In this document: in pieces, positions 48,340 to 64,000 of the stretch
Position numbering within the stretch: position 1 is the first letter of the stretch
How the letters are laid out: every line of letters starts with the position of its first letter
Source of the DNA: Auanema rhodensis
Taxonomy: Eukaryota > Animalia > Nematoda
DNA: 64,000 nucleotides
Reading direction: 5' to 3'
Assembly (NCBI GenBank): GCA_964057225.1
Contig: OZ059895.1
Location: 3,348,001-3,412,000 of the forward strand
Notes under the pieces: model-generated
The model's input: the letters and a program-made list of their open reading frames with translations, nothing else
What the model was told of the DNA's origin: nothing
The model's database searches: none
Program-made: the position numbers and the translations under genes

Positions 48340-48675
48340 CGTTCCATTCGGATGATCAATACGTAGCAGGCGGGTTAGAGCTAGACGACAAGAGACGAGA
48401 GGAGCTGACACGCCCTTTATATGGAACTCAGACTTTAGTTCTGTCTCATGGAATGACTAAGGATGGCTTGTCATCTCCTCAGAGCTCACCTATAGTTTAT
48501 ATCTCTTTATTTCTTATCGTAACTTATTGTAATCATTATGTAGAATAAACCTTTCTTTTCATGAGTCTTATGTTATCCATTATGCTCTATTAATACCGCT
48601 ACATCTGGAACACTATATCGCACATCTTATAGACTACATTGGTCTATAGGATAGATACGAGAGCATAACGGAACG
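48340..48675 (+). repeat. 5' LTR (336 bp)
   Basis: Direct repeat of 59498-59833 with 5 substitutions. Starts CGTTCC and ends GGAACG (6-bp terminal inverted repeat). TATA-like TTTATAT at 48416-48422 and AATAAA at 48544-48549. Confidence 0.97.
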
Positions 48676-48688
48676 TGGAGGTTCCACC
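48676..48688 (+). promoter_or_regulatory. Primer-binding site, tRNA-Gln
   Basis: TGGAGGTTCCACC directly abuts the 5' LTR and is the reverse complement of the 3' end of eukaryotic tRNA-Gln (...GGUGGAACCU-CCA), 13 nt. Confidence 0.9.
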
Positions 48689-49807
48689 TCGAACGTTTCT
48701 TTTACTATTCTCTTATTTTCTTAAATTTTATTCACTCTTGCAATATTCATTTTCTTTTCAACTTTCTCTTATCCATTGCCATCTTCTCCACGCTAAAACA
48801 CAAAACGGAGGGGCCAACATCGTTATAGGGAACAGATGCAAGGAACTCTCATAATAAGAGAGAAAAATTACACATTTTGGGAAGAATTTATTTTACTTGA
48901 TCCCGTTGTTCACAATTTTGTCATGTCTGAACCTAAGTCACATATCCTTGCTATTAACATCTGATTATACTGTTACCCGACCTCGAAGCCACATGAGGAC
49001 TTTAGGTTGAATTCGTGAACAGATTCACCTAAAGATTTTATATATATTTTGATTATTACCCACACCATTCTCCTTTTAAGGATTGATTTCGGCTTTGAGG
49101 AAAGAATAACTCCAGTTATTTCTTAAATTTTGTGGATGAAAAGCATGCCAATTTGAATTTTAAATAATTTTGCGATAAGGACTATTATATTTTGCGTTTA
49201 AAATCGTTCAGACAACTTTTAGCATTTACCATCCAAAAACATAACAAAACGCTTAAAAATCGTACGGGAAACCTCACAACAAGTGAGAGGATGTTTAATT
49301 TAATAACTTACATTCGCTATAGTCCGAAAAATCCTGCGATATTCTTACAAACTGATCTCCCAATTTAAATTTATTCGTCAGGTCGAGTTGGCTAAAGCAT
49401 ATTAGTTGGATTTTCTCCCCATACTATATGTCACCTTCCTCATACCGTTTTGTTGTTTAGAAACATGAGACTCAATTCCAAATCATCTTATTCTTTTTAT
49501 AATTTCGTATAGTTCTTGTAAATTTTAGTCAGCTATGTAACTTCAATATTATAAAACGAGATCTTTGGTTTGCAAAACGACTACGGTAGATTTCTTAAAA
49601 AAGATCCTTACTTCCCGTTGAACCATGAACGAACGAATTAAGTATGCAATTGGGACTAGTAATTCTTCTTGGATAGAGTGATGGATTACCAAAGTCTAAT
49701 TTTAATGCAACTTTTTGGAATGCCTAAGGGAGTTTGCGACTAAAAATCAAAAAATTCTATAAAAAAGAGAAGGGAATAAGCCCATTGAGACCAGGCAATC
49801 ATCCATA

Positions 49808-50011
49808 ATGCGTGCAAAGAGAAAAGAAAAATGCAAATGCTATACAAATTGGACCCAAAAGACCAAGATAACCAAAGTCCAATTTCAAAGTACGGTAGAA
49901 GGCGGATCTAAAGTTATGGCCAGAACCTTAGATTCATTCCTATCCTTCCGACTTGACCAAACCAGTTGTCAGTCTCAATCTAGCTTTTCCCAACTTACCA
50001 CCAACAACTAA
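49808..50011 (+). other. Short upstream ORF (67 aa) in the same reading frame as the polyprotein
   Basis: ATG at 49808, TAA at 50009-50011. The frame is then open from 50012 to 58771. No recognisable homology. Confidence 0.3.
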
Positions 50012-50101
50012 ACGTACATACCCACCCAATTACGTTCAAATTCCATCATCCCACACGTAATCAGACACTCGAGGTTTTTTCAAACCAAGAGTCCTAACAA
50101 G

Positions 50102-53100
50102 GTGGAGAGAAGGTATAACTCAGCAGTACCTCTCAGTACGCACTCCAACCCGGATCCCCGCGACTCAGCTCCAGTAACCAGAAGCCGAACTCGCGCGCAA
50201 AGTGTCGCCATTATCAACGAAGACACAGCAGAGGAGAAGCCTAACGTGGAAAAATTTTACACGCCCCGTGCAGGTACGTTTTCTCCTTCAGAACGTTCTA
50301 GTGATCCGGACTACATACCATCTGGAGACGACGAGCGACCCTTGGTGATAGACGAACAGACACCGAACACCACTACGAAAGAAAAGGTACGCTCTTCCAA
50401 TATACATAAAAATAAAAATAATAAAAATCTAAATAATTCTGATATCTCTCTCTCTCTCTCAAGTCAAGAACCTACTGGTTCACCTTCAACTACAGGCTTA
50501 CAATCTCTCAAAAACAAAGTCGTTGATTTATTGAATCGCTCACCCAAAGACCCAAACCCAAAATCTAGCCGAGCACAGCGACTTGCTACAATACCCAATA
50601 CATACACGCGCTATACGTTATCTCCAATCACCTCACCGGAGCAAAGAAAACTTTTGAAAAATAACCCACAAACATCAACCCCAATTCTCAATAGTCCAAG
50701 ATTAGACGAATTGACGACACCTAACCAATATAACCAAACAGAGCACATTACTCCTACGTCAGGAAGTTCAAGATCTGCACATACAGTAATAGCTGTTCCG
50801 AAAAAAATGACTGAGCCCGCAACCAATTTACCCGGAGCGGGGAAAACAACAATTGCCCAAGTTTTAACATCACCCTACTGCCCTGTTTATGACGGTAGCC
50901 GCAATTTCCGCGACTTTACCGCTAAATTTAATGTCTTCGCTAATGCACTTGGCCTAGTGATACCTGAAAGGTTGACTCTTCTGCCGTTGCTTCTTAAAAA
51001 TGATGCGGCAGAAGAAGCATACAAACAAACTCCTGAACACCTTAAAACGTCGGGTTCATGGAATGATTTGTTAGCAGCTTTAACATCAAAGCTCTGCCCT
51101 GAATATAATCAGGACCCAGCACTGATCAGCCTTCAAAACACTAGTCAAGGGGATCTTTCGATTGATGCCTTTGCTCAGGCTTTGCGAACAATAAGCCTTA
51201 GTGCTTTTGCCAGTGATGACCCACATAAGGATCACATACTAAGATCAACCTTCCTGAGAGGACTTAAAAATACTCTGAAGGCAGGAGTGATCCGAGCAAG
51301 GCCCAAAACCTTTGCTGAGGCGATTGAGGCTGCTCGCTGGGAAGAATCAATATTGAACCAGACAGCAGACACTCAGGCGATGCTAGTGAATGCAGTTAAC
51401 CAAGCACTAGCTCCCTTTACGCGCAATAAAGAGAGAAGAGATAACAGAACTTTTGACCGAAGTTACCAGCGCGGTAATCAAAATTATCAAAATTATCAAA
51501 ATTATCAAACAAATAAAAACCGTTCAAATTATAACAATTTCCAACAACGTAATAATAATTTTGGAAATAATCGCCGTCCAAATAATTTTGGAAGAAATAA
51601 CGAGCGTCAAAACAGCAATAATGGTACTAATTGGTACCAAAATAATTATAATCCTCGATATAACAATCAAGGAGGAAGAAATGGACAAAGGCGAGTACAA
51701 TTTAAAGAACGAAGAAACCAATCGAGAGGAAGAGATAGGAGCTCTTCAAGAGTTAACTCCATCTCTCTTTCACCACTCTCATTAACTGTTGTAATGGCAT
51801 TAGCAGCAGCAATACTGCTACCTTGTGCGTCAAGCTACCAAGCATGCACAAAAGCAACAGGGGGAGCACTACTCATGCCTCCAACATTAAAGAAATGCAA
51901 ATTAACAGAAGCAAACCACGTGATCCAAACACAAGTCCATCTATACACTCGCAATCACACAGCTCACGAGTGGGACGCGTGGCGCTGCTCGAAGGAAGTG
52001 CACAGGCTGTGTGTACGCGATTTATTATTCCTTCGCGACAGCAACAAAACAATCGATAGGATAGAGCCTATAAGCGTGCAGTCATGCAGGCAGGCAATTC
52101 GCGATCGAAAGTGGAATAATATGGAACTAGAAAGAATCGATAGTATTGCCCAAGCAACCCCTGAACCCTCCTTCGATCCGGCGCGAGCGTTTAGCCGCGA
52201 CGAGTGCGAGGAGCGGTCGCGTTTAGTACTGGAGCGGGGTGTTATGACCCGCATGCCAGACGATACCATCCTTTCAAACTTACTACTAAACACTGAAGGG
52301 TGCAGTGCGCATCATGGTAACTGCAAATCAAAAAATTCAATAATTATTTGGGATCCACAAACTACGGATTCCCGTTGCAATTACATAGATATGCACACAT
52401 ATGAAGCCATCATTAGCGGCGATACTATCCTAATTCCGAGCACACAATCTGCTCTTATCCTTTCGAACAAACCAACCCCAAAACCTATCGCTTCGTGTTT
52501 TAGACAATCAGCATTTCACACAACATCGGGGAACTACATCATACTCCCCAAATTTCCAAATGACAATAACATTACTATCCTCGTAGAAAGAGAGTTTAGA
52601 AAATTGCCGTTTAAAAGACAAAAACGCGCAATCGCTACAGGATGTTCATTCCCTTTAGACCAAGATAGAGTAATGGAAGTTGAAGATTTTGAGACTCATA
52701 CGCTTCACATATGCCCATATGCCTTTTTGAGACCAATTATGAGCAATCCGGGCATTACGCAGATTATCTCTTTAATCAAAGGAAGACGAATGGCAGATCC
52801 CACGTACTCTTTAAAAGAATGGATAACTGCTAATCGCGAGAAATTTGAATTTTTCTTTAAAATCCAAATTTATGATAAATCCTTAAGACATTTTCTTAAA
52901 CAATACGATTTTCGCGATAAAGATGAAGCAATCCTACAATATGTTGCACAAAGAGAACTGGCGTTAGCAACAAAGACAGGAATATCTTATCTAACACCCA
53001 AACAATTACTTCAACAAATATCTGATCGGTTAACTGTTATTGAATTCGATCGCATTCTTCATACCAAAGAAGGCACTTATCGGGAAAGAACTGAAAGTAT

Positions 53101-56100
53101 TGCGCTTGATTTAGCTAATACCCCAGTCATAATCGAAGAAAACCTCACTGTTCCATCTAGACAAGAAGTGTTACAATCTTTTGTGAAATTACCACCGATA
53201 CGACAAAAGATACTAACAAATGAAGAAGCACAAAAGAGCGAATTCATACAAGAAACAATTAATCTTGTAACCGAACTTAAAACTCTCATAAAAATTAGGA
53301 AAAACAAAACAGCAGCAGACATTGATGAGATGAAATTTATTAATCTTCCTGCATCACGAATGTTTGTACAAAATACTGATAAACTGTTCTACGATATCAA
53401 AAATAATTTTGGAATACCAATCGGTCCACACCCTAAGCTCATCAAGCCTAGTAAAATCTCTAAAGATTTATTATTGAAAATTTTCTTGCCACTACTTGCT
53501 GAAAAGAAATTGCCTTATACTTCAAGTAGAATATCACCAGAACACCTAAGGAGACTAATGGCAGAGAAACTCGAGCTTGAATCGCTGCAAACCACGACGC
53601 GTACGCCGAGCGTCGCTGCAGGCGGCGCGGCAGCAACATCAGCCCAACCCATAATCGATCGGAAGACGACCATCGAATCAGATCCCGCAATGCAGCCGCA
53701 TGCAATAACAAGCCCTCAAGCAACCGCAGCGACTACCGCGCGCGCGCCATCGTCGACAGCCGAGCCGAAAATAACAGAGAGCTACACAACCGCAACAACT
53801 ACCGCACGCGCGACAATATCGACTAGCCAGGCGCCAACATCAACAAAGCTCTACGCCACTTATAAAGATCAACAAATTCCAATAATGGACGAAATAACAT
53901 ACTTACCCACGACATTGATTCGAAAACAGAGAGCTTCATCAACACCAACAGCAAAAGAAATACAGTCTGTTCAGGCTCAAGCTCATTACATAGCTTCGAA
54001 AATTGACTCGGAAGAACAGTATCGCCAAAACATTACGAGCAAGATTGCACAAGATCATTTGCAATACGCCACAACAATGATTCAAAGCGAGCTACAGAAA
54101 CATTTCAAAGAGTCATACGAATCAATATGTGAGATCCAAAATAGATATCTAGAGCTATGGCGATCAATTTTACAAATCGAACCAACAATCGCTATGCGTA
54201 CTATCCTTGGAAGAGAAGACATAGCAGCTCGTTTTGTTGGAAGTGAGATATTACACGTACATGTTTGCCCAACAGTTTTCACAAAAACTATTTATCACAA
54301 TCACACGGTAAACAATACATGTTATCTCGAAACGCCAATTTTAACCGAAGAAGGCCAATTACTATTCGCAGCACCAGGATCAAAAGATCTTCTACCCCAC
54401 GGAAAAGAAATCAATTGTGATCACGTACCAACAGACGTATGGTCAGCAGACGGTGAATGGAAAGGAATCAATGGCACTGTAGATGTCAGTCTCATATCCA
54501 TGGGAGATGGACTGCATCACGAAAAGATCACACCATTAAAATTCACTGGAGCACACCTTTACACTAATTTAACATCACGTGTATACTCCATGACCACAGC
54601 CATTGCTTATGGTGCTAGTTTAGCGTCAATCCGTCAAAATCATGTACTTCATACAATTCACAATGATCCTAAAATATCAGCCGCCTATAGTGTTTTAAAG
54701 AAGAGTAGTGACTACATATCTAAAGCACACGAATTCACAAAAAACACTTGGAATTCATTCATTGATACGATGGTAGGGACAATCGAACGAACACTAATTA
54801 CAATTGGTGCAATCACATCTGTTATAATAATTGTGATCATACTAGCATTTATCATCAAGGTCTACTTCCTCAAATCAATTCCGATACCAGTCATGCACAT
54901 TGAACTGAAGGATCGAAATAGTAACCCACCTACATACGAAGAAACCTTAGAGCTAGTTACTCAACCTGATCAACCCATTCCAAGAAACATAATGAAGCAA
55001 TACTACCCATCAATACTGACGTATATACCAATTGCAATACCATTGGTTTGTTCAATTTCAAAAAGGAAAGATCAATCTTTACCACTATTATGGATGACTG
55101 TTAATGACAGATTAGTCCTCACCTTATGGGATTCAGGATCATCTATCAGTTATATCAGAGTATCAACACTACATTACTTGACTTTAAACGACTTTGTAAA
55201 GAACAATAAATCAAGTGCTACAACAGCAAACGGATCAGAATTTCGATTCATCGGTACAATAGATCTAACCGTCGAAATTGCCGGATATGAAATCGATCAT
55301 ACATTCTATATATCCAACGATGAAGACTGCCCTTCACCAGCATTAATTGGATTAGATTTCATGAAGACACTTGACAGTCAAAACATTGGCATGAAACTTA
55401 GACCATACAAAAGGACACTAGAAATTGGAAACCGCGTAGTACGGTTAGCTAATGGAATTGACGGAAGACTCAGCAAAACATCAACAACTGTCAATCTGAT
55501 TAACTTAAAACAGCGAGATATGCTTCCAAACGAAACTTGTACACTACAAGTTCAATTAGAAAAACCCATCAGAGACGATTCTTTCGCGATGCTCTCGATA
55601 GATAATAACAAAATGCTAACACCCAAATACCATACAGCATTTCGCGATGTTAATTCCATTGATATCACGTTCAAAAACAACTCCAACAAATTTATTGAAT
55701 TACCATCAGGACACGTAATTACTAAAGCTGAGATAGGAATCATGCCTGACTATGAAATCTTCACAACTGATCAAAAACAAGACTATATTCCACCTGAAGC
55801 TGATTGGGAAAGTAAATTACCTACTTTTCCAACTGATTTTATGAAAGAACTTGATCTAAAAGATGCCGATCTTACACAAAATCTTAAAGATCATTTACGT
55901 TCTATAATTCGCAGACGAAAAAAGGCTTTCCTCAATGAAGACAAAAATATAGGACTGTTCAAAGGCCCTGTAGAACACAGCATACCATTAAGAACTGACA
56001 TGGATATGCCTAAACCTAGGATCACTCGTATACCCTTAGGAAAACAAGAGGAAATTGAAAGACAAGTACAGGAAATGCTTCAACAAGGAATAATCGAACC

Positions 56101-58771
56101 ATCAACATCACTGTTCAATAGTCCTGTTGTATTAGTGAAGAAAAAGGACGATACATTTCGTTTTGTAACTGATTTCCGCGCCTTAAACAACGTTACACGG
56201 AAGCAAACATATGTAATTCCTAATATCTCCGACATTATTGATATGGCAGCTGGATCAAAATATTTTTCCAATTTTGATTTAGTTTCTGGATTTTTCCAAA
56301 TACCATTAAAGAAATCAGACCGATCCTTAACAGCCTTCACAACAAATACGGGAACGTATCAATACAGAAGGATGCCTATGGGATTATGTGGCGCTCCACA
56401 TACCTTCCAAACTGCGGTACGATATCTTCAAAGCAGATGCAAATGCAGACTATTCGTTTACTTAGACGATCTACTTGTTATATCAGATAATGCAGAACAA
56501 CACATATATGATATTGAAGAAGTACTCGAAAGAATTGAAGAACTAGGATTGAAGATAAAGCTCAAGAAATGCTCATTTGCTAGACCAGAAGTCAAATTTC
56601 TTGGGTTAATTGTTGGAAGAGATGGAGTTAAGCCTGATCCAAAGAAAGTTTCCGCCATCCAAGACTATCCTGCTCCACAGTCACCTACGGGAGTTAGAGC
56701 ATTTTTGGGAATGGTAGGATTCTTTCGGAAATTCATTAAAGACTTTGCTCACATCGCAAGCCCTCTATATGATCTCACAAAACTGGACACAGATTTCAAA
56801 TGGTCAGACCAGTGCCAACAAGCGCTAGAAAAATTAAAGAAAAGATTAATAGAAGCACCAGTACTGAAACCACCAAGAGCAGATCGTACTTTCATAATTG
56901 AAAGCGATGGCAGCAATATAGCCATCGGAGCAGTACTGTTACAACCTGAAGATCCGAATGAACCTTTGAAAAACTTACATCCTATTGCTTTTGCAAGTAG
57001 AAAATTAGTTAAAGCCGAACGAAACTATCCTCCTATTGAGATCGAAGCCCTAGGATTAGTATACGCGCTTGCTCAGTTTCGGACTTATATACTTGGATCA
57101 CACGCAATATGCATTACGGATCACCGACCATTAACAAGCTTAATGACACGAAGAGATTTGTTTGGAAGACTAGCAAAATTTCAATTAGTAATACAGGAAT
57201 ACAACATTGAGATCAGATATCGTGAAGGTAGACTAAACAAAGTCTGTGACGCTCTTTCACGATACATTGGAGACGAAGCTAATGATCCAAAGCCAGAAAA
57301 GAAAAAGAAAGTTAAAGAGCCTCAACTTGCTCAGGTTAACTTTGTTAACATACCAGACATTAAACAAATACAAGGCAATACACCTTGGATCAAAAAGACA
57401 ATTGCCGAAATTGAATACAGAACAAAGAAAAACATGCTCTCCAATGATCGTTATTGTGTAATTGATAACATGCTGTACACAAAACCGAGCACGAAAAGAC
57501 CACACCCAGCCTTAGTTTTACCACGAGAGAGCGAACTGATCAGCAAGATCATCGAAGAATTTCATGAAGACCCAGCAATCGGGGCACATCAAGGAATTAA
57601 TAAAACTAAAGAAGCCATATTACGAAGATTCTTCTGGACAAATATGCAAACGGACATAGCAATTTTTGTGAAACAATGCGTTAAATGCGCACAAAGGAAG
57701 AAAGACCCTCATGCTATGACCGTTCAGCCAATGGGTCAATTCGAAATACCATCTAAACCATTTGAGAGAATACATATGGATATCATGGGACCCTTCCCAA
57801 CATCAAAAAGAAACAACAACTACGTTCTTACAATCCAGGACTCTTTTTCCAAATGGGCGACAACTATTGCTATACCTACAATAGTTACGGACGTTGTCAT
57901 CGACAGATTCCTCAGAAATTTTGTATACATTTATGGACCTCCAAATCGACTAATAACAGATCGAGGTTCCAATTTTGTATCAAAGAAATTCGAAAATATG
58001 TGTGATAAACTCGGCATAAAACATGAACCAACACTCCCGCATCAGAAGAACTCTAACGGACAAGTGGAAAGACTACATAGGACGTTAGAAGAAGGATTAA
58101 CACATTATTTGAACGAAGAAATTACTGATTGGGACTTATTTTTGCCAAAAGTCACCTTTGCGTTAAACACCACAACACACTCAACAACAGGAATATCACC
58201 ATATATAGCTTTATTCGGAAAAGAAAGTCGTATGAGACTCGATAAAGAATTATCACCTGAAACACCGGAATCAGGAACAATATCCATTGATATAGAAAAC
58301 ATGGAACAACTTCGTCAAGAAAGAAAATCTCTCATTCAAGATAACTTGGAAAAACATCAGCAACAAGCAAAGAAGAAACACGATTCAAGACAACGAATTG
58401 AAGAAAGGGACATCCGTGAAGGAGACCAAGTTATGTTGACCATTAAGTCACATAAAATAGGTCAAAAGCTGAGGAAATGTTATGATGGACCCTTTGAGGT
58501 CATCAAAGTAAAAGGATCAATGGTACAAATCAAGAATCCTTTTGGAAAACTCCAAGATATACACAAAGACAACTTGAAACTTTTCAATCGAAGTTCAACA
58601 TGTGGAGCAGCACACAACACTCGCTCCAAAGCTAGAAACAGCGACTCAGATGACGACAGTGACATCGAAATTATCGAAGTTATACACGGAGACAATAACG
58701 AAGAATTAGACACCGAAATTGACTCAGAAGACCCATCAGATCATAATTGGATACCATCAAGAAGAAGATAA
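50102..58771 (+). CDS. Gag-Env-Pol polyprotein (single ORF, 2889 codons from GTG; first in-frame ATG at 50807)
   Basis: No stops or frameshifts over 8.67 kb; domain motifs are listed in the sub-features. The true start is uncertain (GTG 50102, ATG 50807 in an AAAAAAATG context, or spliced). Confidence 0.95.
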   Translation: MERRYNSAVPLSTHSNPDPRDSAPVTRSRTRAQSVAIINEDTAEEKPNVEKFYTPRAGTFSPSERSSDPDYIPSGDDERPLVIDEQTPNTTTKEKVRSSNIHKNKNNKNLNNSDISLSLSSQEPTGSPSTTGLQSLKNKVVDLLNRSPKDPNPKSSRAQRLATIPNTYTRYTLSPITSPEQRKLLKNNPQTSTPILNSPRLDELTTPNQYNQTEHITPTSGSSRSAHTVIAVPKKMTEPATNLPGAGKTTIAQVLTSPYCPVYDGSRNFRDFTAKFNVFANALGLVIPERLTLLPLLLKNDAAEEAYKQTPEHLKTSGSWNDLLAALTSKLCPEYNQDPALISLQNTSQGDLSIDAFAQALRTISLSAFASDDPHKDHILRSTFLRGLKNTLKAGVIRARPKTFAEAIEAARWEESILNQTADTQAMLVNAVNQALAPFTRNKERRDNRTFDRSYQRGNQNYQNYQNYQTNKNRSNYNNFQQRNNNFGNNRRPNNFGRNNERQNSNNGTNWYQNNYNPRYNNQGGRNGQRRVQFKERRNQSRGRDRSSSRVNSISLSPLSLTVVMALAAAILLPCASSYQACTKATGGALLMPPTLKKCKLTEANHVIQTQVHLYTRNHTAHEWDAWRCSKEVHRLCVRDLLFLRDSNKTIDRIEPISVQSCRQAIRDRKWNNMELERIDSIAQATPEPSFDPARAFSRDECEERSRLVLERGVMTRMPDDTILSNLLLNTEGCSAHHGNCKSKNSIIIWDPQTTDSRCNYIDMHTYEAIISGDTILIPSTQSALILSNKPTPKPIASCFRQSAFHTTSGNYIILPKFPNDNNITILVEREFRKLPFKRQKRAIATGCSFPLDQDRVMEVEDFETHTLHICPYAFLRPIMSNPGITQIISLIKGRRMADPTYSLKEWITANREKFEFFFKIQIYDKSLRHFLKQYDFRDKDEAILQYVAQRELALATKTGISYLTPKQLLQQISDRLTVIEFDRILHTKEGTYRERTESIALDLANTPVIIEENLTVPSRQEVLQSFVKLPPIRQKILTNEEAQKSEFIQETINLVTELKTLIKIRKNKTAADIDEMKFINLPASRMFVQNTDKLFYDIKNNFGIPIGPHPKLIKPSKISKDLLLKIFLPLLAEKKLPYTSSRISPEHLRRLMAEKLELESLQTTTRTPSVAAGGAAATSAQPIIDRKTTIESDPAMQPHAITSPQATAATTARAPSSTAEPKITESYTTATTTARATISTSQAPTSTKLYATYKDQQIPIMDEITYLPTTLIRKQRASSTPTAKEIQSVQAQAHYIASKIDSEEQYRQNITSKIAQDHLQYATTMIQSELQKHFKESYESICEIQNRYLELWRSILQIEPTIAMRTILGREDIAARFVGSEILHVHVCPTVFTKTIYHNHTVNNTCYLETPILTEEGQLLFAAPGSKDLLPHGKEINCDHVPTDVWSADGEWKGINGTVDVSLISMGDGLHHEKITPLKFTGAHLYTNLTSRVYSMTTAIAYGASLASIRQNHVLHTIHNDPKISAAYSVLKKSSDYISKAHEFTKNTWNSFIDTMVGTIERTLITIGAITSVIIIVIILAFIIKVYFLKSIPIPVMHIELKDRNSNPPTYEETLELVTQPDQPIPRNIMKQYYPSILTYIPIAIPLVCSISKRKDQSLPLLWMTVNDRLVLTLWDSGSSISYIRVSTLHYLTLNDFVKNNKSSATTANGSEFRFIGTIDLTVEIAGYEIDHTFYISNDEDCPSPALIGLDFMKTLDSQNIGMKLRPYKRTLEIGNRVVRLANGIDGRLSKTSTTVNLINLKQRDMLPNETCTLQVQLEKPIRDDSFAMLSIDNNKMLTPKYHTAFRDVNSIDITFKNNSNKFIELPSGHVITKAEIGIMPDYEIFTTDQKQDYIPPEADWESKLPTFPTDFMKELDLKDADLTQNLKDHLRSIIRRRKKAFLNEDKNIGLFKGPVEHSIPLRTDMDMPKPRITRIPLGKQEEIERQVQEMLQQGIIEPSTSLFNSPVVLVKKKDDTFRFVTDFRALNNVTRKQTYVIPNISDIIDMAAGSKYFSNFDLVSGFFQIPLKKSDRSLTAFTTNTGTYQYRRMPMGLCGAPHTFQTAVRYLQSRCKCRLFVYLDDLLVISDNAEQHIYDIEEVLERIEELGLKIKLKKCSFARPEVKFLGLIVGRDGVKPDPKKVSAIQDYPAPQSPTGVRAFLGMVGFFRKFIKDFAHIASPLYDLTKLDTDFKWSDQCQQALEKLKKRLIEAPVLKPPRADRTFIIESDGSNIAIGAVLLQPEDPNEPLKNLHPIAFASRKLVKAERNYPPIEIEALGLVYALAQFRTYILGSHAICITDHRPLTSLMTRRDLFGRLAKFQLVIQEYNIEIRYREGRLNKVCDALSRYIGDEANDPKPEKKKKVKEPQLAQVNFVNIPDIKQIQGNTPWIKKTIAEIEYRTKKNMLSNDRYCVIDNMLYTKPSTKRPHPALVLPRESELISKIIEEFHEDPAIGAHQGINKTKEAILRRFFWTNMQTDIAIFVKQCVKCAQRKKDPHAMTVQPMGQFEIPSKPFERIHMDIMGPFPTSKRNNNYVLTIQDSFSKWATTIAIPTIVTDVVIDRFLRNFVYIYGPPNRLITDRGSNFVSKKFENMCDKLGIKHEPTLPHQKNSNGQVERLHRTLEEGLTHYLNEEITDWDLFLPKVTFALNTTTHSTTGISPYIALFGKESRMRLDKELSPETPESGTISIDIENMEQLRQERKSLIQDNLEKHQQQAKKKHDSRQRIEERDIREGDQVMLTIKSHKIGQKLRKCYDGPFEVIKVKGSMVQIKNPFGKLQDIHKDNLKLFNRSSTCGAAHNTRSKARNSDSDDDSDIEIIEVIHGDNNEELDTEIDSEDPSDHNWIPSRRR
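50807..51751 (+). other. gag: Gag region: capsid-like domain followed by an N/Q/R-rich low-complexity nucleocapsid-position segment
   Basis: PVYDGSRNFRDFTAKF start and FLRGLKNTLKAGVIRARPKTFAEAIEAARWEE end are typical of Ty3/gypsy capsid. No CCHC knuckle; QNY x3 repeat at 51479-51505. Confidence 0.85.
51752..55045 (+). other. env: Envelope glycoprotein region, herpesvirus gB / class III fusogen-like
   Basis: Hydrophobic signal-like LSLTVVMALAAAILLPCASS (~51776-51835); Cys-rich ectodomain with about 10 N-x-T sequons; furin RQKR (52616-52627); S/T/A/P-rich stretch (53582-53850); gB-like CEIQNRYLELWRSILQIEPTIAMRTILGREDIAARFVGSEILHVHVC (54128-54268) followed by CYLETP; TM helix (54791-54871). Confidence 0.85.
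55058..55450 (+). other. Retropepsin-type aspartic protease domain
   Basis: LWDSGSSISYI (catalytic D at 55130), TANGS flap-like motif, ALIGLDFM. Boundaries approximate. Confidence 0.9.
55950..56850 (+). other. Reverse transcriptase domain
   Basis: IIEPSTSLFNSPVVLVKKKD, FVTDFRALN, FDLVSGFFQI, TAF, RMPMGL, YLDD (56459-56470), FLG. Boundaries approximate. Confidence 0.97.
56885..57265 (+). other. RNase H domain
   Basis: ESDGSNIAIGAVLLQ, PIAFASRKL..AERNY, EIEAL, TDHRPL, CDALSR. Confidence 0.95.
57540..58590 (+). other. Integrase (HHCC zinc-binding, DDE core, GPF/GPY module)
   Basis: FHEDPAIGAHQG...CVKC; IHMDIMGP, ITDRGSNF, NGQVERLHRTL; YDGPFEV. No chromodomain visible. Confidence 0.95.
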
Positions 58772-59461
58772 AACAACCACATTGATTATACTCTTGTTAA
58801 AAATTTTGCATAAAAATCGTTTTAAGGAAACTAGAGCTAAAAATTAATTTTACCAACACAAACAACAGATAGATGAGCAGTAAGCTATAACTTGATGAGC
58901 AGTCATGTTTCAAGCACATCGAAAAAAAAATATATATATAATAATAGCTACAAATTATCATAAAAGTTACTCCAATCTCAAATAATTTCCCCTAAAAACC
59001 CGAAGAAATGAAAGATGAGAGACATTATATTGCAATCAAAGCTGAGCAACAGTCATCATCAAGTAATTAATGATTCATTTCCGGAAATTATACGGGATTG
59101 TTTTAATAATTCCAAACAAATAATGTTTTCTTTCAAAACTGAAGAAACAGCCTAGCTTCATTGAGAGTATAACTTAGCTCTCGCTACTCTGCTCTATATT
59201 GGTTAGACATACAGCGTCGTGCCCAAAAAGCTACTTTCATGCACTTTCGCTGTCAAAATATAGCTCTAGTATTCTTAAAAGATTGTGCTTTTGCTTTATA
59301 CTCATGTATTATTTTATTTAAAACTTATTAAATCCTTTTTAGACAATATTGTTGAGGTTAATATTGTATAATTTTGTATTATTTGAACAACAACAATGTA
59401 TTTTAACAAGTAAATCCTCTAAACCTCTTGCTACGATTGAAACAAGCCACACATTTTGATA

Positions 59462-59477
59462 GTCGCGAGGACGCGAC
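59462..59477 (+). promoter_or_regulatory. Short hairpin GTCGCG-AGGA-CGCGAC upstream of the plus-strand priming site
   Basis: Perfect 6-bp inverted repeat with a 4-nt loop, 20 nt before the 3' LTR. Similar GAGGAC-centred hairpins precede the PPT in many gypsy elements. Confidence 0.55.
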
Positions 59478-59485
59478 ATAAACTC

Positions 59486-59497: not shown

Positions 59498-59833
59498 CGT
59501 TCCATTCGGATGATCAATACGTAGCAGGCGGGTTAGAGCTAGACGACAAGAGACGAGAGGAGCTGACACGCCCTTTATATGGAACTCAGACTTTAGTTCT
59601 GTCTCATGGAATGACTAAGGATGGCTTGTCATCTCCTCAGAGCTCACCTATAGTTTATATCTCTTTAATTTTTATCGTAACTTATTGTAATCATTATGTA
59701 GAATAAACCTTTCTTTTCATGAGTCTTATGTTATCCATTATGCTCTATTAATACCGCTACATCTGGAACACTGTATCGCACATCTTATAGACTACATTGG
59801 TCTAAAGGATAGATGCGAGAGCATAACGGAACG
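59498..59833 (+). repeat. 3' LTR (336 bp)
   Basis: CGTTCC...GGAACG; 331/336 identical to the 5' LTR; AATAAA at 59702-59707. Confidence 0.97.
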
Positions 59834-62800
59834 AGCCTACGTAGGAAAACATCCGTTCAAGCAACAGAACTTGGGAAGATCCATGTCTGATTAGACGGTC
59901 AGTTTATTATTTAAGGGTAACCTGTGCTGCGTATAATTTATGGGTGTACAAAAATCAAAGTTTATTACTATCTTTACAAAATAGATACAAAAAAATTGGA
60001 ATGTGATCACATGTTCTGATGTTTTGAAGGGCATGTTTTACTAGCCTACGTAGGAAAACATCCATTCAAGCAACAGAACTAGGAAAGATCCATGTCTGAT
60101 TAGTCGGTCAGTTCATTATTTAAGGGTAACCTGTGCTGCGTATAATTTATGGGTGTACAAAAATCAAAGTTCTTAATCAAAGTTTAAAAAACAAACTGAA
60201 TAAAAGTTAGAAAATCTGAATTAAAATCTTTCCAACATAGTGTTCAACATATGATATATTACTATCTTTACAAAATAGATACAAAAAAATTGGAATGTGA
60301 TCACATGTTCTGATGCTTTGAAGGGCATGTTTTACTAGCCTACGTAGGAAAACATCCGTTCAAGCAACAGAACTTGGGAAGATCCATGTCTGATTAGACG
60401 GTCAGTTCATTATTTAAGGGTAACCTGTGCTGCGTATAATTTATGGGTGTACAAAAATCAAAGTTTATTACTATCTTTACAAAATAGATACAAAAAAATT
60501 GGAATGTGATCACATGTTCTGATGTTTTGAAGGGCATGTTTTACTAGCCTACGTAGGAAAACATCCATTCAAGCAACAGAACTTGGGAAGATCCATGTCT
60601 GATTAGACGGTCAGTTCATTATTTAAGGGTAACCTGTGCTGCGTATATTTTATGGGTGTACAAACAACAAGGTTCTTAATCAAAGTTTAGAAAACAAACT
60701 GAGTGAAAGTTGAAAAAATCTGAATTAAAATCTTTCCAACATAGTGTTCAACATATGATATATTACTATCTTTACAAGATAGATACAAAAAAATTGGAAT
60801 GTGATCACATGTTCTGATGCTTTGAAGGGCATGTTTTACTAGCCTACGTAGGAAAACATCCGTTCAAGCAACAGAACTTGGGAAGATCCATGTCTGATTA
60901 GACGGTCAGTTCATTATCTAAGGGTAACCTGTGCTGCGTATAATTTATGGGTGTACAAAAATCAAAGTTTATTACTATCTTTACAAAATAGATACAAAAA
61001 AATTGGAATGTGATCACATGTTCTGATGTTTTGAAGGGCATGTTTTACTAGCCTACGTAGGAAAACATCCATTCAAGCAACAGAACTAGGAAAGATCCAT
61101 GTCTGATTAGTCGGTCAGTTCATTATTTAAGGGTAACCTGTGCTGCGTATAATTTATGGGTGTACAAAAATCAAAGTTCTTAATCAAAGTTTAAAAAACA
61201 AACTGAATAAAAGTTAGAAAATCTGAATTAAAATCTTTCCAACATAGTGTTCAACATATGATATATTACTATCTTTACAAGATAGATACAAAAAAATTGG
61301 AATGTGATCACATGTTCTGATGCTTTGAAGGGCATGTTTTACTAGCCTACGTAGGAAAACATCCATTCAAGCAACAGAACTAGGAAAGATCCATGTCTGA
61401 TTAGTCGGTCAGTTCATTATTTAAGGGTAACCTGTGCTGCGTATAATTTATGGGTGTACAAAAATCAAAGTTTATTACTATCTTTACAAGATAGATACAA
61501 AAAAATTGGAATGTGATCACATGTTCTGATGCTTTGAAGGGCATGTTTTACTAGCCTACGTAGGAAAACATCCATTCAAGCAACAGAACTAGGAAAGATC
61601 CATGTCTGATTAGACGGTCAGTTCATTATTTAAGGGTAACCTGTGCTGCGTATATTTTATGGGTGTACAAACAACAAGGTTCTTAATCAAAGTTTAGAAA
61701 ACAAACTGAGTGAAAGTTGAAAAAATCTGAATTAAAATCTTTCCAACATAGTGTTCAACATATGATATATTACTATCTTTACAAAATAGATACAAAAAAA
61801 TTGGAATGTGATCACATGTTCTGATGCTTTGAAGGGCATGTTTTACTAGCCTACGTAGGAAAACATCCGTTCAAGCAACAGAACTTGGGAAGATCCATGT
61901 CTGATTAGACGGTCAGTTCATTATTTAAGGGTAACCTGTGCTGCGTATAATTTATGGGTGTACAAAAATCAAAGTTTATTACTATCTTTACAAAATAGAT
62001 ACAAAAAAATTGGAATGTGATCACATGTTCTGATGTTTTGAAGGGCATGTTTTACTAGCCTACGTAGGAAAACATCCATTCAAGCAACAGAACTTGGGAA
62101 GATCCATGTCTGATTAGACGGTCAGTTCATTATTTAAGGGTAACCTGTGCTGCGTATATTTTATGGGTGTACAAAAATCAAAGTTCTTAATCAAAGTTTA
62201 GAAAACAAACTGAGTGAAAGTTGAAAAAATCTGAATTAAAATCTTTCCAACATAGTGTTCAACATATGATATATTACTATCTTTACAAGATAGATACAAA
62301 AAAATTGGAATGTGATCACATGTTCTGATGCTTTGAAGGGCATGTTTTACTAGCCTACGTAGGAAAACATCCGTTCAAGCAACAGAACTTGGGAAGATCC
62401 ATGTCTGATTAGACGGTCAGTTCATTATCTAAGGGTAACCTGTGCTGCGTATAATTTATGGGTGTACAAAAATCAAAGTTTATTACTATCTTTACAAAAT
62501 AGATACAAAAAAATTGGAATGTGATCACATGTTCTGATGTTTTGAAGGGCATGTTTTACTAGCCTACGTAGGAAAACATCCATTCAAGCAACAGAACTAG
62601 GAAAGATCCATGTCTGATTAGTCGGTCAGTTCATTATTTAAGGGTAACCTGTGCTGCGTATAATTTATGGGTGTACAAAAATCAAAGTTCTTAATCAAAG
62701 TTTAAAAAACAAACTGAATAAAAGTTAGAAAATCTGAATTAAAATCTTTCCAACATAGTGTTCAACATATGATATATTACTATCTTTACAAGATAGATAC

Positions 62801-64000
62801 AAAAAAATTGGAATGTGATCACATGTTCTGATGCTTTGAAGGGCATGTTTTACTAGCCTACGTAGGAAAACATCCATTCAAGCAACAGAACTAGGAAAGA
62901 TCCATGTCTGATTAGTCGGTCAGTTCATTATTTAAGGGTAACCTGTGCTGCGTATAATTTATGGGTGTACAAAAATCAAAGTTTATTACTATCTTTACAA
63001 GATAGATACAAAAAAATTGGAATGTGATCACATGTTCTGATGCTTTGAAGGGCATGTTTTACTAGCCTACGTAGGAAAACATCCATTCAAGCAACAGAAC
63101 TAGGAAAGATCCATGTCTGATTAGACGGTCAGTTCATTATTTAAGGGTAACCTGTGCTGCGTATATTTTATGGGTGTACAAACAACAAGGTTCTTAATCA
63201 AAGTTTAGAAAACAAACTGAGTGAAAGTTGAAAAAATCTGAATTAAAATCTTTCCAACATAGTGTTCAACATATGATATATTACTATCTTTACAAGATAG
63301 ATACAAAAAAATTGGAATGTGATCACATGTTCTGATGCTTTGAAGGGCATGTTTTACTAGCCTACGTAGGAAAACATCCATTCAAGCAACAGAACTAGGA
63401 AAGATCCATGTCTGATTAGACGGTCAGTTCATTATTTAAGGGTAACCTGTGCTGCGTATATTTTATGGGTGTACAAACAACAAGGTTCTTAATCAAAGTT
63501 TAGAAAACAAACTGAGTGAAAGTTGAAAAAATCTGAATTAAAATCTTTCCAACATAGTGTTCAACATATGATATATTACTATCTTTACAAGATAGATACA
63601 AAAAAATTGGAATGTGATCACATGTTCTGATGCTTTGAAGGGCATGTTTTACTAGCCTACGTAGGAAAACATCCATTCAAGCAACAGAACTTGGGAAGAT
63701 CCATGTCTGATTAGACGGTCAGTTCATTATTTAAGGGTAACCTGTGCTGCGTATATTTTATGGGTGTACAAACAACAAGGTTCTTAATCAAAGTTTAGAA
63801 AACAAACTGAGTGAAAGTTGAAAAAATCTGAATTAAAATCTTTCCAACATAGTGTTCAACATATGATATATTACTATCTTTACAAGATAGATACAAAAAA
63901 ATTGGAATGTGATCACATGTTCTGATGCTTTGAAGGGCATGTTTTACTAGCCTACGTAGGAAAACATCCGTTCAAGCAACAGAACTTGGGAAGATCCATG
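59834..64000 (-). repeat. Same satellite family in inverted orientation (continues beyond the window)
   Basis: AGCCTACGTAGGAAAACATCCGTTCAAGCAACAGAACTTGGGAAGATCC is the reverse complement of the left-array monomer. Unit starts at 59834, 60043, 60337, 60546, 60841 and onward. Confidence 0.99.

What the first reader, a model, noticed from the sequence alone, without database searches (positions are those of the whole stretch)
54050..54420. Env core resembles herpesvirus gB / class III fusion proteins
Seen: ICEIQNRYLELWRSILQIEPTIAMRTILGREDIAARFVGSEILHVHVC...NNTCYLETP. Established: the gB domain III central helix and following strand read approximately WCxxQNxExxLWxExxKxNPxxxxSxxxGRxVSARxxGDVxxVxxC...CYSRP. 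gB-like envelopes occur in chuviruses and in the Ascaris Tas (BEL/Pao) element. Inference: a class III fusogen was captured by a gypsy lineage. It is not the baculovirus-F-type env of insect errantiviruses.
Basis: partly seen in the sequence, partly recalled or inferred. Interest (0 to 1): 0.85.

Follow-up and report, generated by a model that had tools for sequence, protein, structure and literature searches.

The report
Nematode retrotransposon with herpes-gB-like envelope
This is an intact retrovirus-like jumping gene, likely of a roundworm, whose capsid, herpesvirus-gB-like envelope and enzymes lie in one long reading frame; that kind of element is already published, and the fresh detail is a large extra domain of no known family inside the envelope that may help it attach to cells.

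Summary
Observation confirmed, and already known as a class. The motif (54125-54337) lies in one 2,919-codon frame, gag-env-protease-RT-RNaseH-integrase, between 336-bp LTRs (331/336 identical) in a satellite array. The envelope is a class III fusogen. It passes Pfam Monjiviricetes_fusion (50 bits, cut-off 27). A homologue profile hits herpes gB at E 1.5e-17 and rhabdovirus G at 1e-4. The AlphaFold model's best matches are gB, and a trimer model passes (0.53, best control 0.00) through the flagged helix. GAG-ENV-POL Ty3/gypsy elements with gB-type env are described for nematodes, flatworms and bryozoans (Chary and Hayashi, PMC13524379, citing Sacco 2022). This scan also met them before on other DNA. 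Named relatives are nematode proteins, and the tRNA-Gln primer site equals that of two catalogued Caenorhabditis elements. 'Capture' is not shown; the paper argues for ancient inheritance. What I did not find described: gB's furin loop here holds 491 residues (median 38.5 in 88 proteins), made of a furin-like site, an orphan helical domain and a Ser/Thr/Pro-rich stalk. Relatives carry inserts there that look unrelated. It is a candidate attachment or capping head, untested.

The parts
48340..48675 (+). 5' LTR, 336 bp, ends CGTT...AACG (not TG...CA), AATAAA at LTR position 205
   Evidence: 331/336 identical to the 3' LTR
48676..48687 (+). Primer-binding site for tRNA-Gln
   Evidence: Directly follows the LTR; its reverse complement equals the 12-mer listed for Clat_errantivirus_4 and Ctro_errantivirus_1 in PMC13524379 supplementary file 1
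50012..58771 (+). Single open frame, 2,919 codons stop to stop; first ATG at 50807 (aa 266): gag-env-PR-RT-RH-IN
50993..51364 (+). Gag capsid domain (aa 328-451)
   Evidence: Pfam Retrotrans_gag E 0.0012 and Ty3_capsid E 0.014, both below cut-off; relatives pass Ty3_capsid or Retrotrans_gag
51758..51835 (+). Predicted internal signal peptide between Gag and Env (aa 583-608)
   Evidence: Hydropathy peak 2.18; a like stretch in 28 of 28 Gag-Env fusions, window included, no background control run
51836..52555 (+). Env N-half (aa 609-848): fusion domain and PH-like domain II; predicted fusion loops near aa 671-674 and 725-728; 10 conserved Cys
   Evidence: Model pLDDT about 80-98; VIA Z 9.1 to Chandipura G, rmsd 8.5 over 194; profile hit to rhabdovirus-type G E 1.2e-4; Cys and loop columns
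52616..52627 (+). Furin-like site RQKR (aa 869-872), in the loop that carries the furin site of cytomegalovirus gB
   Evidence: alignment to 7kdd; R-x-K/R-R in the first 45 residues of 17 of 25 long linkers, against 1 of 77 middle windows
52628..53596 (+). Inserted, mostly helical domain of no known family (aa 873-1195; best folded aa 915-1036)
   Evidence: No Pfam hit, no PDB sequence hit up to E 10; pLDDT about 66-81 over model residues 311-420; homologous inserts in P0004, P0007, P0014, P0062, P0081, P0109
53582..53851 (+). Ser/Thr/Pro/Ala-rich, predicted disordered mucin-like stalk (aa 1191-1280)
   Evidence: S+T+P+A 0.60-0.70; pLDDT about 30
53945..54511 (+). Env C-half: domain III long helix (aa 1312-1389) and domain IV (to aa 1500); holds the flagged motif 54125-54337
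   Evidence: VIA Z 10.1 to pseudorabies gB domain IV, rmsd 3.5 over 154; trimer interface at aa 1361-1398
54779..54895 (+). Env transmembrane anchor (hydrophobic aa 1590-1628), then a tail of about 74 aa running into the protease
   Evidence: Hydropathy 2.97; exactly one such peak in 33 of 33 Env-PR fusions
55094..55366 (+). Aspartic protease (aa 1695-1785, LWDSGS)
   Evidence: Pfam gag-asp_proteas above cut-off
56135..57202 (+). Reverse transcriptase (YLDD) and RNase H
   Evidence: Pfam RVT_1 E 1.9e-32, RT_RNaseH_2 E 2.7e-29
57530..58042 (+). Integrase (H2C2 and core), downstream of RT/RNase H (Ty3/gypsy order)
   Evidence: Pfam Integrase_H2C2 and rve above cut-off
59498..59833 (+). 3' LTR, 336 bp

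Best explanation
This is a coding-intact Ty3/gypsy LTR element, likely of a rhabditid nematode, that encodes Gag, a gB-type (class III) envelope and Pol in one frame, and the envelope likely works as the trimeric membrane-fusion protein that would let its particles pass from cell to cell. Shown: the frame, the domain order, the LTRs, the primer site, and the class III sequence and predicted-fold matches. Inferred, by hydropathy and by analogy to alpha- and flavivirus polyproteins (my knowledge): Gag is made in the cytosol; the internal signal peptide threads Env into the ER; the single anchor at aa 1590-1628 returns Pol to the cytosol; signal peptidase and the element's own protease then free the parts. 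Env would trimerise through the flagged domain III helix. Furin would cut RQKR, leaving the two halves disulphide-linked as in herpes gB, and the two hydrophobic loops would insert into the target membrane. After that cut the inserted helical domain would sit at the new N-terminus of the anchored half, on a mucin-like stalk. I think it is most likely an accessory head, for attachment or as a cap on the prefusion trimer; this last step is the weakest (about 0.35 for attachment).
For: One stop-free frame with all domains. 14 Cys are conserved in 41-55 of 46-59 aligned rows each. The profile matches gB from domain II to the anchor (E 1.5e-17) and rhabdovirus-type G in the fusion domain. Model pLDDT is about 80-98 in both halves. 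Foldseek: all 37 PDB rows shown are herpes gB, 117 matches at E<=0.001. VIA: the top 9 rows are all class III proteins (gB, Chandipura G, Bourbon virus GP), best Z 11.5. The trimer of aa 1318-1593 scores 0.53 against best control 0.00, with runs agreeing in at least 25% of contacts and pLDDT about 50; that mark was reached by 20 of 30 solved homo-pairs and 1 of 23 single chains, and on eukaryotes by 17 of 29 and 0 of 30. A signal-like stretch precedes Env in 28 of 28 and one anchor follows in 33 of 33 fusions. 9 of 150 hits hold gag-env-RT-IN in one protein. The same class is published, with AlphaFold trimers. A 2,167-nt contig across env, insert included, is in three DNA runs with 4-8 differences and no gaps.
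Against: No fusion, cleavage, particle or expression data exist here. The trimer pass may come from likeness to solved gB, and its calibration held two copies, not three. Whole-model TM-scores are low (TMq about 0.15; rmsd mostly 23-27 A, 42-45 A for the top three rows), so relative domain placement is not modelled (pTM 0.48). The Glycoprotein_B score (33.6) is below Pfam's cut-off of 43. The second predicted fusion loop is less aromatic than in most relatives. 63 of 88 proteins have a linker of 100 aa or less, so the insert is not needed by the family at large. A single frame implies equal amounts of Gag, Env and Pol, and no regulating signal was identified.
Confidence: 0.78

Rival explanations
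1. The envelope is as described, but the insert is a passive spacer or glycan shield (or is shed) and binds no receptor.
For: The matching gB loop is variable and carries the furin site. Linker length runs from 8 to 502 aa. Part of the insert is low-complexity. A second basic stretch, RKQR, lies near its end (aa 1305-1308).
Against: About 160 residues are conserved at 20-33% identity among related nematode elements and fold with pLDDT near 70-80. A strict second furin motif is in the last 45 residues of only 2 of 25 long linkers.
Confidence: 0.35
2. The envelope was captured fairly recently by a nematode gypsy lineage from a nyami- or chu-like RNA virus, not inherited from early animals.
For: The best Pfam family is Monjiviricetes_fusion. 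The top four BFVD rows are Keturi virus, a hemipteran rhabdo-related virus, Beihai rhabdo-like virus 3 and Nyavirus midwayense. Homologues also sit behind integrase in BEL/Pao elements, and those rows do not form one group in the quick env tree, so this gene does move between elements.
Against: The BFVD E-values are nearly tied with herpes gB (7e-14 against 1e-11), at 10-16% identity. None of the 20 top or insert-bearing hits looked up carries a virus name (18 named as nematode or hypothetical proteins, 2 unnamed). PMC13524379 finds the env across animals, with host-specific Cys patterns.
Confidence: 0.3
3. The envelope no longer drives cell entry; the element copies itself inside cells and keeps env only because it is locked in frame between gag and pol.
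For: Any stop in env would also remove Pol, so an open frame alone proves little. Internally deleted relatives exist as DNA (joints).
Against: All 14 family cysteines, the signal peptide, the anchor, the furin-like site and the fold are kept at 20-35% identity to relatives. In-frame loss of env would be tolerated if it were useless.
Confidence: 0.12
4. The match is a chance coiled-coil resemblance, or the region is a captured cellular protein.
For: Unrelated coiled coils reach Z about 6 on the long helix; a weak Ground-like Pfam hit, E 0.012.
Against: Independent matches in the beta-rich fusion domain and in domain IV; profile E 1.5e-17; every Foldseek row shown is a viral protein or unnamed viral entry.
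Confidence: 0.01

Closest known systems
GAG-ENV-POL, HSV/gB-type 'errantiviruses' of Nematoda (Chary and Hayashi, eLife 2026, PMC13524379); nearest listed row by eye: Clat_errantivirus_4
   Same: Ty3/gypsy pol, gB-type env between gag and pol, five-domain class III fold, tRNA-Gln primer site with the identical 12-mer. The env N-half resembles that row by eye (identity not computed).
   Different: Three 7-residue motifs of this env are absent from the paper's env table (the rows are gapped, so a miss is weak). The sections I read do not discuss a single polyprotein or large inserts in the furin loop; figures were not visible.
Non-canonical nematode endogenous retroviruses (Sacco et al. 2022, J Gen Virol, pmid 35550022)
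   Same: Env and pol in flipped order in nematode metaviruses (as cited in PMC13524379). From memory, not from a call: called NERVs, with one continuous gag-env-pro-pol frame.
   Different: Paper not held, so I cannot say whether it covers this lineage or the insert.
Herpesvirus glycoprotein B
   Same: Domain III helix, domain IV, the N-terminal Cys motif, a basic cleavage motif in the domain II loop, and a predicted trimer.
   Different: About 8-15% structural identity, below the Pfam cut-off; a loop of 491 aa where cytomegalovirus gB has a few dozen; part of a retroelement polyprotein, with no gD or gH/gL partner encoded.
Monjiviricetes G proteins (nyami-, chu-, borna-, rhabdo-like)
   Same: Passes Pfam PF24664; top BFVD rows; rhabdovirus-like fusion domain.
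   Different: Sits inside an LTR element; no donor family can be named at 10-16% identity.
BEL/Pao elements with gB-like env: Anakin (PMC7642597) and Ascaris Tas (PMC9094657)
   Same: Homologous env; 5 of 13 hits scanned carry Pao-type domains.
   Different: Their env follows integrase; this element has Ty3/gypsy pol, no Pao peptidase family hit, and env before the protease.

Membership tests
Class III viral fusion proteins (gB/G/gp64) | Long central domain III helix with gB-like sequence, followed by the domain IV beta crown | tested here: met
   Profile E 1.5e-17; Z 10.1, rmsd 3.5 over 154 to gB domain IV
Class III viral fusion proteins (gB/G/gp64) | Elongated beta fusion domain with two hydrophobic loops, nested in a PH-like domain | tested here: met
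   Model strands and pLDDT; Z 9.1 to Chandipura G and 8.8 to MHV68 gB over residues 25-248; loop columns 96% and 98% hydrophobic
Class III viral fusion proteins (gB/G/gp64) | Homotrimer through the central helix | tested here: met
   Predicted only: 0.53 against best control 0.00; mark reached by 20 of 30 solved homo-pairs and 1 of 23 single chains; may reflect likeness to solved gB
Class III viral fusion proteins (gB/G/gp64) | Type I membrane topology (signal peptide, one C-terminal anchor) | tested here: met
   Hydropathy only; no dedicated predictor run
Class III viral fusion proteins (gB/G/gp64) | Drives membrane fusion | not testable with these tools
   Needs a bench assay
Pfam Monjiviricetes_fusion PF24664 | Score at or above the curated cut-off of 27 | tested here: met
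   50.1 bits
Herpesvirus gB family, Pfam PF00606 | Score at or above the curated cut-off of 43 | tested here: not met
   33.6-37.4 bits: gB-like, not a herpes gB
Ty3/gypsy (Metaviridae) | LTRs, tRNA primer site, pol order PR-RT-RH-IN | tested here: met
Ty3/gypsy (Metaviridae) | RT groups with reference Ty3/gypsy elements | tested here: inconclusive
   The RT tree held only database hits, no references; the window groups with two Caenorhabditis proteins (99 SH-aLRT, 57-60% identity)
Ty3/gypsy (Metaviridae) | Target-site duplication | tested here: not met
   The flanks are different satellite positions in opposite orientation; this speaks to this copy's history, not to its family
Nematode GAG-ENV-POL gB-type errantivirus (PMC13524379) | gB-type env between gag and Ty3/gypsy pol, uninterrupted, within LTRs | tested here: met
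Nematode GAG-ENV-POL gB-type errantivirus (PMC13524379) | Nematode host | tested here: inconclusive
   Inferred from relatives: 17 of 20 looked up carry a nematode species name, closest Auanema at about 60%; no genome is held for the window
Nematode GAG-ENV-POL gB-type errantivirus (PMC13524379) | Cysteine-bridge type (C1a/d, C2a/c) | not tested
   Defined in a figure supplement that cannot be read here
Insect errantivirus F-type env (class I) | Baculovirus-F/gypsy env family match, env after pol | tested here: not met
   No such Pfam family up to E 10; env lies before pol and matches class III
BEL/Pao (Belpaoviridae) | Pao peptidase/DUF1759/DUF5641 domains, env after integrase | tested here: not met
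   Absent, present in true BEL/Pao hits

The most novel reading that the evidence does not exclude
Nematode gB-type retroelement envelopes use gB's furin loop as a slot for swappable attachment heads: an orphan globular domain on a mucin-like stalk, exposed by furin cleavage, does the receptor-binding or triggering job of herpes gD/gH-gL. That would answer how a lone gB-type fusogen enters cells, which PMC13524379 calls unknown. This element has the second-longest such insert among 88 proteins.
Probability: 0.3. Interest if true: 0.6.

Novelty: new member of a known kind. Interest (0 to 1): 0.22.

Why it matters
The flagged feature is real but adds only one more intact example to a published class. 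Its value is practical: a coding-intact copy with near-identical LTRs, whose env is present nearly unchanged in several DNA runs, suits structural and fusion work on envelopes whose entry mechanism is unknown. If the variable insert is an attachment head, it would show how a class III fusogen gains receptor specificity without partner glycoproteins, and how these elements might choose target cells in the worm.

Tried and rejected
Single-sequence fold: pLDDT 34, useless. Alignment A1 (110 rows) misplaced a conserved Cys and was dropped for A2 (65 rows). The word-index protein search found nothing for the env C-half among longer proteins or for the insert. It also missed known homologues of fitting length (P0062, P0007), so these blanks are no evidence. 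The ESM Atlas was never reached (8 tries), so the insert was not searched there. The insert could not be folded alone; no row of the whole-model fold search was specific to it, which is inconclusive. PPTY in the env tail as a late domain: PPxY in only 2 of 33 tails, rejected as a family trait. Double furin excision of the insert: strict motif near the end in 2 of 25, not supported. The env tree is a quick tree of 68 rows with long branches and no viral sequences, so it names no donor. Expression: no RNA holder listed; run X10 is only guessed to be RNA. The joints stand in DNA runs, so they are deleted copies, not splicing. No listed contig piece bridged the satellite-LTR junction (contigs short, table cut), inconclusive. 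No genome is held, so copy number was not measured. Print searches for the insert idea gave 1 irrelevant paper and 0 papers. Earlier scan notes: none by sequence or place.

Full report
1. Observation. The window is a satellite array with one LTR element in it. The element's only long frame runs 50012-58771 (+): 2,919 codons without a stop, first ATG at aa 266. The quoted peptides lie at aa 1372-1442, nt 54125-54337. Pfam places capsid, env, protease, RT, RNase H and integrase in that order. The env stretch scores 50.1 bits on Monjiviricetes_fusion (cut-off 27) and 33.6 on Glycoprotein_B (cut-off 43), and no F-type env family appears up to E 10. Against PDB sequences, 43 of 46 matches up to E 10 are gB-type chains on this stretch, best E 0.0024.

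2. The envelope is class III. A search of 1.84 billion representatives gave 294 hits to E 0.001, of which 150 were listed. I aligned 64 of the 150 with the ectodomain (A2), choosing shorter proteins; an earlier 110-row alignment was dropped for a misplaced cysteine. In A2, 14 cysteines are conserved, ten in the N-half and four in the C-half. The A2 profile matches herpes gB at E 1.5e-17 from domain II to the anchor, and rhabdovirus-type G chains at E 1.2e-4 in the fusion domain. The model folded with A2 has pLDDT about 80-98 in both halves, but pTM 0.48. All 37 PDB rows that Foldseek showed are gB. VIA gives Z 11.5 to HSV-1 gB (rmsd 42.7, 359 aligned, so domain placement differs), Z 10.1 to gB domain IV (rmsd 3.5, 154) and Z 9.1 to Chandipura G (rmsd 8.5, 194), above coiled-coil noise near 6. 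Among viral models the first four rows are mononega-like G proteins, with herpes gB close behind. Three copies of aa 1318-1593 score 0.53 against a best control of 0.00, with pLDDT about 50 and at least 25% of contacts shared between runs. That mark was reached by 20 of 30 solved homo-pairs and 1 of 23 single chains, and the interface is the flagged helix. The pass may come from likeness to solved gB.

3. The element. The LTRs are 336 bp and 331/336 identical. The 12 bases after the 5' LTR are the reverse complement of the tRNA-Gln 12-mer listed for 2 of the 36 nematode elements in PMC13524379; 8 of those 36 use tRNA-Gln. Of 20 hits looked up, 17 carry nematode species names; the closest (about 60% identity in the C-half) are Auanema proteins. 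The host is therefore likely a rhabditid; no genome is held. Nine of 150 hits hold gag, env, RT and integrase in one protein, and 5 of 13 hits scanned are BEL/Pao-type. Three DNA runs each hold a gap-free 2,167-nt contig over 51970-54136 with 4-8 differences (one may be the window's own source), so env and its insert are not an assembly error.

4. How it likely works. A hydrophobic stretch precedes Env in 28 of 28 Gag-Env fusions (no background control), and exactly one anchor lies between Env and protease in 33 of 33. This fits a polyprotein threaded once into and once out of the ER, then cut by signal peptidase and the element's protease; that is inference from alpha- and flavivirus polyproteins (my knowledge). 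Predicted fusion loops lie near aa 671-674 and 725-728; the second is less aromatic than in most relatives. Nothing here shows expression, cleavage or fusion.

5. The insert. Between the last domain II strand and the domain III helix, where cytomegalovirus gB has its short furin loop (furin use is my knowledge), this env has 491 residues. Among 88 proteins with both flanks (87 hits plus the window) the median is 38.5; 25 exceed 100 and only one is longer. It reads RQKR, then a helical domain, then a Ser/Thr/Pro/Ala-rich stretch. R-x-K/R-R is in the first 45 residues of 17 of 25 long linkers, in the last 45 of 2, and in 1 of 77 middle windows. In 10 of the 13 linkers of 223 aa or more, the most S/T/P-rich 40-mer is in the last quarter. 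The helical domain has clear homologues in six hits, five of them Auanema proteins, and a shorter form in a Caenorhabditis group (hhalign E 1.4e-5). Of 55 pairs among 11 insert groups, 2 matched at E under 1e-4 and 4 more only weakly, so several inserts look unrelated. No Pfam family covers this insert or the linkers of 11 further proteins, and no PDB sequence matches it. Its fold was not searched on its own. An attachment or capping role is my inference from this layout; a spacer or shield remains about as likely.

6. What is known. PMC13524379 (Chary and Hayashi, eLife 2026) reports gB-type env in Ty3/gypsy elements across animals, in GAG-ENV-POL order in nematodes, bryozoans and flatworms, with AlphaFold trimers. 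It argues for an ancient origin and calls the entry mechanism unknown. I saw the abstract, passages, section 6 whole, the first of two parts of the discussion, the supplement list, all 36 nematode rows of supplementary file 1 and the first 15 nematode rows of file 2; figures were not visible and may show inserts. Sacco et al. 2022 is not held: I saw only its title and one citing sentence, and the name NERV and its single frame are recalled. For Anakin (PMC7642597) and Tas (PMC9094657) I saw passages. The word 'polyprotein' does not occur in the eLife main text, and two searches for the insert idea found nothing relevant; that is limited evidence of absence. Four earlier notes of this scan reach the same verdict on other DNA; I had found the paper before reading them.

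7. Verdict. Interest 0.22. The insert-as-attachment-head reading has probability about 0.3 and would merit about 0.6.

Noticed in passing
window 1-48339 and 59834-64000: A satellite array with repeat spacing of mostly 294-295 bp (also 167 and 209-210) changes strand exactly at the element: 168 plus-strand probe copies before it and 16 minus-strand copies after it, with no target-site duplication and different satellite positions at the two junctions. Likely recombination between two oppositely oriented insertions, or an assembly join.
   Followed up: partly
window 48340-48675, 59498-59833: The LTR ends are CGTT...AACG instead of TG...CA.
   Followed up: no
window 50012-50806: 265 codons are open upstream of the first ATG (chance about 1.5e-6 from base composition). 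Some relatives have long N-terminal extensions. This may be a non-AUG start or an upstream exon; no TTTYCAG acceptor was found.
   Followed up: partly
window 48676-50011: A long leader of 1.3 kb between the primer site and the frame, without an ORF of 100 aa.
   Followed up: no
window 48700-59480, laid runs X1, X3, X7, X10: Internally deleted relatives, e.g. joints 50386-52615 and 52688-58574 in all four runs; probably non-autonomous copies.
   Followed up: no
P0012, P0013, P0020 (database hits): These relatives carry two or three protease-like domains in one polyprotein.
   Followed up: no
   Followed up: yes
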